Positions 27,526 to 28,365 of a stretch of 33,940 nucleotides of DNA are shown piece by piece; position 1 is the first letter of the stretch; each line of letters starts with the position of its first letter. The DNA lies in the NCBI GenBank assembly GCA_021399345.1, contig JAAFKI010000070.1, positions 1 to 33,940 on the forward strand, read 5' to 3'. Under the pieces are notes generated by a model. The model did no database searches. It was given only the letters and a program-made list of their open reading frames with translations, and was not told the DNA's origin. A program made the translations under genes and the position numbers. The DNA comes from Candidatus Heimdallarchaeota archaeon. Its GTDB lineage: Archaea > Asgardarchaeota > Heimdallarchaeia > Heimdallarchaeales > Heimdallarchaeaceae.

Positions 27526-28365
27526 ATGATACATGTGTCAATCGATGACTATCTAGACGGTCTATTATCAGACACCGCAGAACCGTCTAAAAAAGCTATT
27601 ATGAAGCTTACTAAATTAATAGAGAATTTTGGAGAAATAATGGTCAAAAGCACCGAAAGAATGGAAGACTATATTGACACTCTCACTAATAGAATCAATG
27701 CTATTGAACATGCATTGGGCGTTTCATCTCGTGCTCCAGCTCCTTCAGCTGCACCATCATTTGATTCTCCTGTAGCTGCACCAGCAGCAGCAGCAGCATC
27801 TCCAAACTTAACAGCAAGTAACTCAAATCCAGTTGCAGCACCTAATTTATCCGCTACAGTTGGAACTCCTGATCTCAGTGGAGGTGGAGGAGGAATTCCC
27901 GCTCCATCTGGTAGTCAAGGATCCACCGGAGGAGGAGTCAGTAGTGCTGATCTTATGAAAGCAGCCTCCAATTTACAAAAAGCACCAGAACCTACACCAG
28001 GCGAACCTGGCGCACCTGGAGAAACACCAGTTTTTAGTCCATTTGGAGTTAGTGCTACCGACATCCAAGATGTTAGATCTGGATTAACTAAAGTTGATCC
28101 TGATGAACACAGGAAAGAAAGAACAGCAGCTGCAAGTGGAGAACCAGGTTCGATGCCTGCTAGCATGGCACTTAACTTAGAAGTCAAAGATGCTTTAGCA
28201 AAACGAAAATCAAGAACAGATGAAGGTGAAGATGCTGAATTTGAACCAACTCCTGTTGCACCAGCATCACCGCAAAAATCAACTAAACAAATGAAAGAAG
28301 CCTTGCAAGGAGAATTACGCGATGCGTTTAGCAGTCTTCTAGAGAGCGACACAAAAGAGGATTAA
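27526..28365 (+). CDS. Hypothetical protein with a coiled coil, Pro/Ala/Gly linker, tandem WH2-like motifs and a C/acidic-like tail (candidate actin regulator)
   Basis: GGTG at 27517-27520 precedes ATG 27526. Internal repeats GVSSADLMKAASNLQKA / GVSATDIQDVRSGLTKV and ALNLEVKDAL / ALQGELRDAF; KRKSR-TDEGEDAEFE. Confidence refers to the CDS; the function is inferred. Confidence 0.85.
   Translation: MIHVSIDDYLDGLLSDTAEPSKKAIMKLTKLIENFGEIMVKSTERMEDYIDTLTNRINAIEHALGVSSRAPAPSAAPSFDSPVAAPAAAAASPNLTASNSNPVAAPNLSATVGTPDLSGGGGGIPAPSGSQGSTGGGVSSADLMKAASNLQKAPEPTPGEPGAPGETPVFSPFGVSATDIQDVRSGLTKVDPDEHRKERTAAASGEPGSMPASMALNLEVKDALAKRKSRTDEGEDAEFEPTPVAPASPQKSTKQMKEALQGELRDAFSSLLESDTKED

What the first reader, a model, noticed from the sequence alone, without database searches (positions are those of the whole stretch)
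28162..28362. Duplicated 'C'/FAB-like helix with basic cap and acidic patch
Seen: SMALNLEVKDALAKRKSR-TDEGEDAEFE (28162-28245) and a second copy of the helix, ALQGELRDAFSSLL-ESDTKED, at the C-terminus. Recalled from memory and to be verified: human WASP ends ...[24 protein letters not shown]...EWDD, and the VASP F-actin-binding helix reads ...[14 protein letters not shown]. The KR-x-SR / DEGED resemblance stands out, with Phe where the Arp2/3-binding Trp would be. Inference: an F-actin-binding or Arp-like partner-binding element, possibly a CA precursor predating Arp2/3.
Basis: partly seen in the sequence, partly recalled or inferred. Interest (0 to 1): 0.7.

Follow-up and report, generated by a model that had tools for sequence, protein, structure and literature searches.

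The report
Duplicated Asgard docking helix, VASP-like
The end of this Heimdall-archaeon protein carries two diverged copies of one short helix that closes a small, unnamed protein family found in most Asgard archaea. The helix looks more like the filament-binding site of animal VASP than like a WASP "CA" element, so it is a good but untested candidate actin-binding motif.

Summary
Both helices are at the stated coordinates in a real 279-aa gene (window 27526-28365) conserved in Heimdallarchaeaceae.

The two helices are related. Each matches the C-terminal helix (consensus SPVSLRGAIMGELKxLFAKRK) of a ~130-aa family found in 266 of 400 Asgard genomes, built as coiled coil, Pro-rich linker and helix:
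- Copy 1 (res 209-232): hhalign P 92%, E 8e-7.
- Copy 2 (res 251-276): P 66%, E 6e-5.
- No column shuffle reached either score.

The WASP reading is not supported:
- The helix alone is no better than shuffles (p 0.65-0.78).
- "DEGED" occurs only in the closest relatives.
- The protein ranks about 200th of 2847 own-genome ORFs against WASP and N-WASP CA.
- A profile search of PDB sequences finds no WASP, WAVE or VASP chain.

The VASP FAB likeness is better but still at motif level: p 0.0006-0.003 against shuffles, and 0 bits once HMMER corrects for composition.

The acidic patch and Phe239 (49 of 53 sequences) are conserved in this family but are not universal.

No paper found describes the family. 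The scan has met this family before on other genomes.

The parts
27526..28365 (+). Whole gene, 279 aa plus stop. It is the long, Heimdallarchaeaceae form of a pan-Asgard family built as coiled coil, linker and helix.
   Evidence: ORF and translation. There are 60 homologous clusters, all Heimdall-type. It is present in 26 of 30 genomes of the family and occurs once in the own genome.
27538..27714 (+). N-terminal conserved helices (res 5-63), a probable oligomerising coiled coil.
   Evidence: AF2 helices 6-14 and 19-63 with pLDDT 80-90. Only generic coiled-coil matches in PDB and Pfam. hhalign against the short-form N-terminus gives P 88.5%, E 2.7e-6.
27721..27930 (+). Disordered Pro/Ala/Gly linker with invariant P-N-L-S repeats.
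   Evidence: pLDDT below 50 for residues 68-136. P106, N107, L108 and S109 are conserved. A homologue has about 15 GPNLGGTPS copies.
27937..27993 (+). Helix plus L-x-K unit 1 (res 138-156, WH2-like). Context only; it lies outside the finding.
   Evidence: L150 and K152 are invariant. Unit 1 against unit 2 gives hhalign P 64% with 0 of 100 shuffles. The Pfam WH2 model does not match.
28048..28104 (+). Helix plus L-x-K unit 2 (res 175-193, reads LTKV). Context only.
   Evidence: L187 and K189 are invariant. The unit HMM scores 38 bits here and hits no other protein of the genome.
28150..28221 (+). Copy 1 of the pan-Asgard helix (res 209-232). The helix has invariant E219, L224 and R227 and a basic cap KRKSR.
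   Evidence: AF2 helix 212-232. hhalign against the Thor short-form helix gives P 86%, E 5e-6, 0 of 150 shuffles. Against the pan-Asgard helix it gives P 92%, E 8e-7, 0 of 100 shuffles. The HMM scores 15.7 bits.
28219..28248 (+). Acidic patch followed by Phe239-x-Pro241 (res 232-241).
   Evidence: Median of 7 D/E in residues 229-240. F in 49 of 53 sequences; P241 conserved in at least 90%. An acidic run followed by a hydrophobic residue is also seen in the f2 and f4 homologues. It is absent from Thor short forms.
28276..28362 (+). Copy 2 of the helix (res 251-276) with an acidic tail to the C-terminus. It is the most conserved part of the protein.
   Evidence: Residues 252-275 are almost all invariant. 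AF2 helix 251-276, pLDDT 70-82. hhalign against the pan-Asgard helix gives P 66%, E 5.7e-5, 0 of 100 shuffles. Against copy 1 it gives P 46%, 1 of 100 shuffles.

Best explanation
Shown: the stretch holds two diverged copies of a single ancestral short helix.
- In most Asgard archaea this helix (consensus ..P-V-S-L-R-G-A-I-M-G-E-L-K-x-L-F-A-K-R-K) is the extreme C-terminus of a ~130-aa protein made of an N-terminal coiled coil and a Pro-rich linker. In Loki-type forms the linker carries PPPPPG tracts.
- In Heimdallarchaeaceae the gene grew. Two helix+L-x-K units were added upstream and the terminal helix was duplicated.
- Copy 1 (res 209-232) kept the basic cap and gained an acidic patch with a conserved Phe.
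- Copy 2 (res 251-276) lost the cap, became nearly invariant and ends in an acidic tail.

Inferred: the helices are docking motifs for one very conserved partner, most likely actin, in the manner of the VASP FAB and WH2-type helices. In that mode a hydrophobic face sits on actin and a basic cap meets acidic actin surfaces.
- The N-terminal coil would cluster several such sites. The protein could then tether, bundle or help elongate filaments, as Ena/VASP does.
- The acidic patch beside the basic cap would most simply tune or mask it.

It is not a demonstrable WASP-type CA element. My odds are about 0.9 for the duplication and family assignment, and about 0.4 for actin as the partner.
For: Anatomy:
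- The coordinates and predicted helices are confirmed.

Family link:
- The N-terminal coils of the long and short forms align at P 88.5%, E 2.7e-6.
- Colinear with that, copy 1 aligns to the short-form end helix at P 86-92%, E 5e-6 to 8e-7, with 0 of 150 and 0 of 100 column shuffles.
- Copy 2 aligns at P 66%, E 5.7e-5, with 0 of 100 shuffles.
- Copy 1 against copy 2 gives P 46%, with 1 of 100 shuffles.
- With the pan-Asgard helix HMM, this protein is the top hit among 2847 ORFs of its own genome.

Distribution:
- The short form occurs in 266 of 400 Asgard genomes. The long form occurs in 26 of 30 genomes of this family. There are 306 short-form proteins in the large database.
- E-L-K is invariant, and L and R nearly so, across Thor-, Loki- and Heimdall-type sequences. 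This argues for a specific, highly conserved protein partner.

Likeness to VASP FAB (sequence checked in PMC10340426):
- Smith-Waterman against residues 205-245 gives p 0.0006 and rank 18 of 2847.
- The FAB scores 11.9 and 9.1 bits against the two helix HMMs. Only 6 and 14 of 5000 shuffles reach these scores, and no other own-genome ORF does.

Context:
- The genome encodes two actins that are 56-59% identical to animal and plant actins.
- Loki short forms carry poly-Pro tracts before the helix, as VASP and WASP do.
- Papers up to 2026 name only profilins and gelsolins as Asgard actin regulators.
Against: - No binding of any kind has been tested.
- All formal family tests fail. The Pfam WH2 model finds nothing in the genome or the family at E<=10. 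PDB sequence searches with the region's profile return no actin regulator.
- With HMMER's composition correction the FAB score falls to 0 bits. The likeness rests on a 16-residue, compositionally biased motif and could be convergent or chance.
- The order of parts differs from VASP: the coil is N-terminal and there is no EVH1 domain.
- A 'helix, basic, acidic' run is generic. The best non-self match in the own proteome is the linker of a Vps4-like ATPase.
- The Lokiactin co-immunoprecipitation in L. ossiferum names profilin, gelsolins, an ARF GTPase and BAR proteins, not this family. I could not see the full table.
Confidence: 0.4

Rival explanations
1. The helices dock a conserved partner other than actin, for example the MIT domain of Vps4 (an ESCRT-III-tail or MIM-like motif) or another Asgard-specific machine. 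The protein would be a general oligomeric scaffold.
For: The motif is short and helical, and in short forms it sits at the very C-terminus after a flexible linker, as MIM helices do. Earlier notes of this scan judged the L-x-K helices of a relative to resemble ESCRT tails as well as actin motifs. The family is Asgard-wide, like ESCRT. Gene neighbours give no cytoskeletal link.
Against: The MIM1 consensus (D/E)xxLxxRLxxL(K/R), recalled from the literature, is absent in strict and relaxed form from all 92 long and short forms tested. No other protein of the genome, ESCRT-III included, carries a similar helix. The poly-Pro tracts and the FAB likeness point to actin.
Confidence: 0.27
2. The basic amphipathic helix is a membrane-targeting sequence, like the terminal helices of MinD or FtsA. 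The protein would be a membrane-tethered oligomer.
For: In short forms the helix is terminal, hydrophobic on one side and ends in K/R-rich residues. A flexible linker before a terminal amphipathic helix is the usual layout of membrane tethers (established knowledge).
Against: An invariant Glu and the invariant E-L-K triplet across the phylum are unusual for membrane helices, which keep amphipathicity and not sequence (inference). In this protein copy 1 is internal, weakly amphipathic (muH 0.14, mean hydrophobicity -0.30) and followed by 7 acidic residues. Copy 2 is net acidic with an acidic tail.
Confidence: 0.12
3. One reading: copy 1 plus the acidic patch and Phe is a CA-type element. It would engage an Arp-like actin-fold partner (the divergent actin and/or the ARPC4-like protein of this genome) and promote nucleation, as a forerunner of WASP-Arp2/3.
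For: The order of parts is the same: Pro-rich region, two WH2-like units, helix with basic residues, acidic run with an aromatic residue. Phe239 is F in 49 of 53 sequences. A sister family (f5) ends in ..KKGW plus acidic residues in 5 of 5 genomes. The genome has an ARPC4-like ORF (32.5 bits) and a divergent 493-aa actin-fold protein.
Against: The helix is no more WASP-like than shuffles (p 0.65-0.78). The signal is only the acidic run. Rank is about 200 of 2847. There are no WASP or WAVE hits at E<=10. 'DEGED' is clade-specific. The aromatic residue is Phe, not Trp, and is not C-terminal. Thor and most Loki forms have no acidic/aromatic part. No Arp2/3 complex is known in Asgard archaea (literature).
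Confidence: 0.06

Closest known systems
[quoted passage not shown]
   Same: A short helix with the pattern G-x-[IL]-M-x-E-[LM]-x-x-[LM]-[LF]-A-[KR]-R-[KR]. It is preceded by a Pro-rich region and, in this long form, by WH2/GAB-like helix+L-x-K units. An oligomerising coiled coil lies in the same protein. The likeness beats composition-matched shuffles.
   Different: The coil is N-terminal, not C-terminal. There is no EVH1 domain. The helix is duplicated. An acidic patch follows the basic cap. The likeness covers about 16 residues and vanishes under HMMER's composition correction. Homology cannot be claimed.
WASP/N-WASP/WAVE VCA (WH2, central helix, acidic region with Trp; PDB 1ej5, 9dlx, 6uhc)
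   Same: The order of parts is the same: Pro-rich region, WH2-like units, helix with K/R, then an acidic run with an aromatic residue.
   Different: The helix shows no sequence likeness above chance. It has Phe instead of Trp, and the Phe is not at the C-terminus. The exact DEGED match is clade-specific. No Arp2/3 complex is known in the host lineage.
Unnamed pan-Asgard short form (~130 aa; annotated 'hypothetical protein' in Thor-, Loki-, Hod-archaeal records)
   Same: The N-terminal coil, the Pro/Ala-rich linker and the end helix are all shared and colinear. This gene is its long-form orthologue, and no short form is present in this genome.
   Different: The long form adds PNLS repeats, two L-x-K units, an acidic patch with Phe, and a second, capless copy of the helix.
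WH2 / beta-thymosin motif (Pfam PF02205)
   Same: A short amphipathic helix followed by basic residues, lying in a disordered region. Copy 1 keeps L224-x-K226 in the register of the upstream L-x-K units (weak: hhalign P 2.6%, 2 of 100 shuffles).
   Different: Neither the Pfam WH2 model nor an HMM of the protein's own L-x-K units matches either copy.

Membership tests
WASP-family VCA / CA element | Central (C) amphipathic helix recognisably similar to WASP, N-WASP or WAVE C regions | tested here: not met
   Smith-Waterman of the helix alone against WASP and N-WASP CA gives p 0.65 and 0.78 against shuffles. Rank is 213 and 202 of 2847 ORFs. A profile search of PDB sequences at E<=10 returns no WASP or WAVE chain.
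WASP-family VCA / CA element | Acidic region with a conserved Trp at or near the extreme C-terminus | tested here: not met
   The acidic patch is conserved, but the aromatic residue is Phe (49 of 53). It is followed by Pro241, a Pro-rich linker and a further 26-residue helix.
WASP-family VCA / CA element | WH2 (V) motif recognised by the family model upstream of C | tested here: not met
   Pfam PF02205 finds nothing in the own genome at E<=10 nor in 19 family members.
WASP-family VCA / CA element | Host has an Arp2/3 complex to activate | tested here: inconclusive
   Only an ARPC4-like ORF (32.5 bits) and a divergent actin-fold protein were found. The other subunits were not searched. The genome is 88.6% complete.
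Ena/VASP (EVH1, PRR, EVH2) | FAB-type basic helix | tested here: inconclusive
   Scores beat shuffles (p 0.0006-0.003) and the own-genome background, but fall to 0 bits with composition correction. The human proteome was not available as a background.
Ena/VASP (EVH1, PRR, EVH2) | EVH1 domain and C-terminal tetramerisation coil | tested here: not met
   No Pfam domain was found in the long or short forms. The coil is N-terminal.
Ena/VASP (EVH1, PRR, EVH2) | Binds F-actin and G-actin | not testable with these tools
WH2 motif (PF02205) | Match to the family profile: amphipathic helix plus LKKV | tested here: not met
   A relaxed WH2 pattern finds nothing in 53 sequences. The HMM of the protein's own L-x-K units scores about 0 bits on both copies.
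ESCRT-III MIM1 tail | Consensus (D/E)xxLxxRLxxL(K/R) | tested here: not met
   0 of 92 long and short forms match the strict or the relaxed pattern. The consensus itself is recalled from the literature.
Pan-Asgard coiled-coil / Pro-linker / end-helix family (unnamed) | N-terminal coil homologous to the short form | tested here: met
   hhalign of A2 against A6 gives P 88.5%, E 2.7e-6. The long-form profile hits short forms at E 2-4e-4.
Pan-Asgard coiled-coil / Pro-linker / end-helix family (unnamed) | End helix with E-L-K ... L ... R signature | tested here: met
   Copy 1: P 86-92%, and 15.7 bits with the HMM. Copy 2: P 66%. No shuffle reaches either score.

The most novel reading that the evidence does not exclude
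The helix, basic cap, acidic run and aromatic residue form an archaeal counterpart of the CA element. The aromatic residue is Phe239 here; sister family f5 has a terminal G-W plus acidic tail. On this reading the module engages an actin-fold partner (the divergent actin and/or the ARPC4-like protein), giving Heimdall archaea a nucleation-promoting system older than Arp2/3.
Probability: 0.06. Interest if true: 0.95.

Novelty: new variant of a known kind. Interest (0 to 1): 0.6.

Why it matters
Asgard archaea have eukaryote-like actin. Only profilins and gelsolins are named as its regulators in the papers read here, and no nucleator or elongation factor is known.

This family is small and occurs across the phylum. 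It joins an oligomerising coil, a Pro-rich tether and a VASP-FAB-like end helix, so it is a concrete, cheap-to-test candidate for that missing activity.

This finding adds three things:
- The Heimdallarchaeaceae version carries the helix twice.
- One copy has a charge-paired basic/acidic flank and a conserved aromatic residue.
- A sister lineage has Trp plus an acidic tail at the same place.

If the helix binds actin, part of the logic of Ena/VASP or WASP-type factors predates eukaryotes. If it binds something else, it still defines a new, conserved Asgard docking motif.

Tried and rejected
1. Co-folding of the genome's actin (alignment A3) with residues 205-279. There is no verdict either way and I did not try another route.

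2. Pfam on the protein, 19 relatives and 10 distant or short forms. Only generic coiled-coil or low-complexity noise appeared, for example CCDC53 at E 0.09 and Ribosomal_L12_N at E 0.017.

3. PDB sequence searches with the whole-protein profile and with the region profile. The best hits were an atypical tropomyosin coil, haemagglutinin HA2 and FlgL, all above E 0.009 and irrelevant.

4. Test of copy 1 as a third copy of the upstream L-x-K unit. The unit HMM gives -0.6 bits and hhalign only P 2.6%. In f4 homologues a true third unit sits at that position, so the idea is not excluded but not shown.

5. Single-sequence comparison of the two helices: p about 0.1. Only profiles show the relation.

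6. Exact look-up of the L. ossiferum and MK-D1-like short forms, to get accession numbers and check the published Lokiactin co-IP table. The sequences are not in the collection, and the paper's supplements are not held.

7. Search for other carriers of either helix in the own genome. None was found. The best is a Vps4-like linker at 12.4 bits.

8. Gene neighbourhood. A beta-eliminating lyase lies upstream and a beta-CASP nuclease downstream. The synteny is kept within the family but has no functional link.

Full report
**What is there.** The finding lies in the last third of a 279-aa ORF (window 27526-28365, + strand). The genome is a Heimdallarchaeaceae MAG, judged from the names given to homologues, with about 33% GC. 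The gene occurs once in the genome. It is present in 26 of 30 genomes of its family, with weaker relatives in the same order. A full HMMER scan of 1.8 billion representatives finds only nine, all from this family.

**Layout of the protein.** AlphaFold2 on 53 sequences gives no globular fold (pTM 0.21). It does predict clear helices at 6-14, 19-63, 140-148, 177-186, 192-204, 212-232 and 251-276. The alignments show, in order:
- a conserved N-terminal coil;
- a disordered Pro/Ala linker with invariant PNLS repeats;
- two helix+L-x-K units;
- a helix with invariant E219, L224 and R227 and a KRKSR cap ('copy 1');
- an acidic patch (median 7 D/E in 12 residues) ending in Phe239-x-Pro241, with F in 49 of 53 sequences;
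- a short Pro linker;
- a nearly invariant helix 251-276 with an acidic tail ('copy 2').

**Is the second helix a copy of the first?** Single sequences do not show it (p about 0.1). Profiles do: hhalign P 46%, E 2e-4, with 1 of 100 column shuffles reaching the score. That is about as strong as the relation between the two upstream L-x-K units (P 64%). The decisive evidence came from outside the family.

**The wider family.**
- Earlier notes of this scan said that this is the long form of a family found across Asgard archaea. I tested that claim.
- Weak N-terminal hits of the long-form profile in another Asgard family led to ~130-140-aa proteins. A database search with one of them returned 306 proteins, mostly annotated Thorarchaeota.
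- A genome survey found the short form in 266 of 400 Asgard genomes, and in 63 of 90 high-quality ones.
- Short forms consist of an N-terminal coil, a Pro/Ala-rich linker and an invariant end helix. Thor-type forms end in MMGELKxLLAARRxK. Loki-type forms have PPPPPG tracts and end in NPVSLRGAIMGELKxLFAKRK.
- The N-terminal coils of long and short forms align at P 88.5%, E 2.7e-6.
- Colinear with that, copy 1 aligns to the end helix at P 86% (Thor profile, 0 of 150 shuffles) and P 92%, E 8e-7 (pan-Asgard profile, 0 of 100 shuffles).
- Copy 2 aligns to the same helix at P 66%, E 5.7e-5, with 0 of 100 shuffles.
- An HMM of the end helix picks this protein as the best of 2847 ORFs of its own genome. 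No short form is present in this genome.
- The region is therefore a duplication of the family's signature helix. Copy 1 kept the basic cap. Copy 2 kept G-E-L-[KR]-x-x-F and lost the cap.

**The WASP comparison.**
- The recalled human WASP tail is right where PDB 1ej5 covers it. The N-WASP CA was taken from 9dlx.
- Against residues 205-245 the local scores are 29 and 32 (p 0.03 and 0.012, uncorrected for 12 tests). They come from the acidic run. The helix alone gives p 0.65 and 0.78.
- Among 2847 ORFs of the same genome this protein ranks 213th and 202nd.
- 'DEGED' is limited to the closest relatives.
- A profile of the region finds no WASP, WAVE, WASH or VASP chain among 177,635 PDB sequences at E<=10.
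- The Pfam WH2 model finds nothing.

**The VASP comparison.**
- The FAB sequence was checked in PMC10340426.
- It aligns to residues 205-245 with p 0.0006 and rank 18 of 2847.
- Against the Thor and pan-Asgard helix HMMs it scores 11.9 and 9.1 bits without composition correction. These scores are reached by 6 and 14 of 5000 composition-matched shuffles, and by no other ORF of the genome.
- With HMMER's composition correction the score is 0 bits.
- The likeness is real at motif level but too short and too biased to prove homology.
- The order of parts differs from VASP: the coil comes first and there is no EVH1 domain.

**The acidic patch and the aromatic residue.**
- They are conserved in this family. 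In looser form (an acidic run, then a hydrophobic residue) they also occur in the f2 and f4 relatives.
- Some Loki-type forms end KRRTDD(DDDD). Thor forms have no such part.
- In a sister family of the same class (f5, one genus, 5 of 5 genomes) the protein ends ..ELKEAF[AS]RI[KR]KGW plus 3-4 acidic residues.
- This keeps the CA-like reading alive as a low-probability case, but it does not test it.

**Rival readings.**
- A MIM1-type ESCRT tail: the consensus is absent from all 92 sequences, and no ESCRT protein of the genome carries a similar helix.
- A membrane-targeting helix: copy 1 is internal, weakly amphipathic and followed by acidic residues, and copy 2 is net acidic. The invariant E-L-K across the phylum points to a protein partner. 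This last step is inference.
- The pattern 'helix, basic, acidic' is generic. The best non-self hit is a Vps4-like linker.

**What could not be done.** Actin binding therefore remains untested here, as in earlier follow-ups of this family. The published Lokiactin co-IP names profilin, gelsolins, an ARF GTPase and BAR proteins, but not this family. I could not see the full table nor map the orthologue to an accession. No paper in the library describes the family.

**Verdict.**
- The duplication is confirmed and explained.
- The WASP/CA reading is not supported. The FAB-like reading is partly supported.
- The most likely function is a clustered actin-docking helix in a VASP-like scaffold, at about 0.4. 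A non-actin protein partner follows at about 0.27, and membrane binding at about 0.12.

Noticed in passing
window 27721-27930 (res 66-135); L008:387-1544: The linker carries invariant P-N-L-S/G repeats (APNLSA). A same-order homologue has about 15 tandem GPNLGGTPS copies. This looks like a repeated short docking motif with no known partner. Loki-type short forms have PPPPPG tracts at the same place.
   Followed up: partly
L019:1222-1782 (-), L040, L041, L043, L044: A sister Heimdall-class family (f5, one genus) ends ..MELKEAF[AS]RI[KR]KGW followed by 3-4 acidic residues, in 5 of 5 genomes. That is a Trp plus an acidic tail directly after the basic cap of the family helix.
   Followed up: partly
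L004:829-2310 (own genome, contig C125): A divergent actin-fold protein of 493 aa (Actin HMM 167 bits over positions 109-407). Its N-terminal segment holds two Cys pairs (CGKT..., CERC), which looks like a zinc ribbon.
   Followed up: no
L005 (own genome, contig C175:52571-52876): An ARPC4-like ORF of 168 aa. It scores 32.5 bits against Pfam PF05856, above the curated cut-off, and covers the C-terminal two thirds of the model only.
   Followed up: no
own genome contig C123, + strand, 341-aa ORF: A Vps4-like AAA ATPase whose MIT-to-ATPase linker reads ELRELLEKRKERKS..DDEEE. It is the best non-self match to the helix, basic cap and acidic patch profile (12.4 bits), which shows how generic that pattern is.
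   Followed up: partly
L006:967-2262 (G010, family f2): A 432-aa relative has a copy-1-like SEIMGVLSRRRDRKSEEEEIDPEE, a long Lys-rich insertion, and two further ..DAFSAAF.. and ..RLKGAFK.. helices. The end helix has therefore been multiplied more than once in this order.
   Followed up: no
window 27915-28352 (-): A 145-aa antisense ORF overlaps the gene. It has no support from homologues, and the + frame is the conserved one. It is most likely an artefact of the biased composition.
   Followed up: partly
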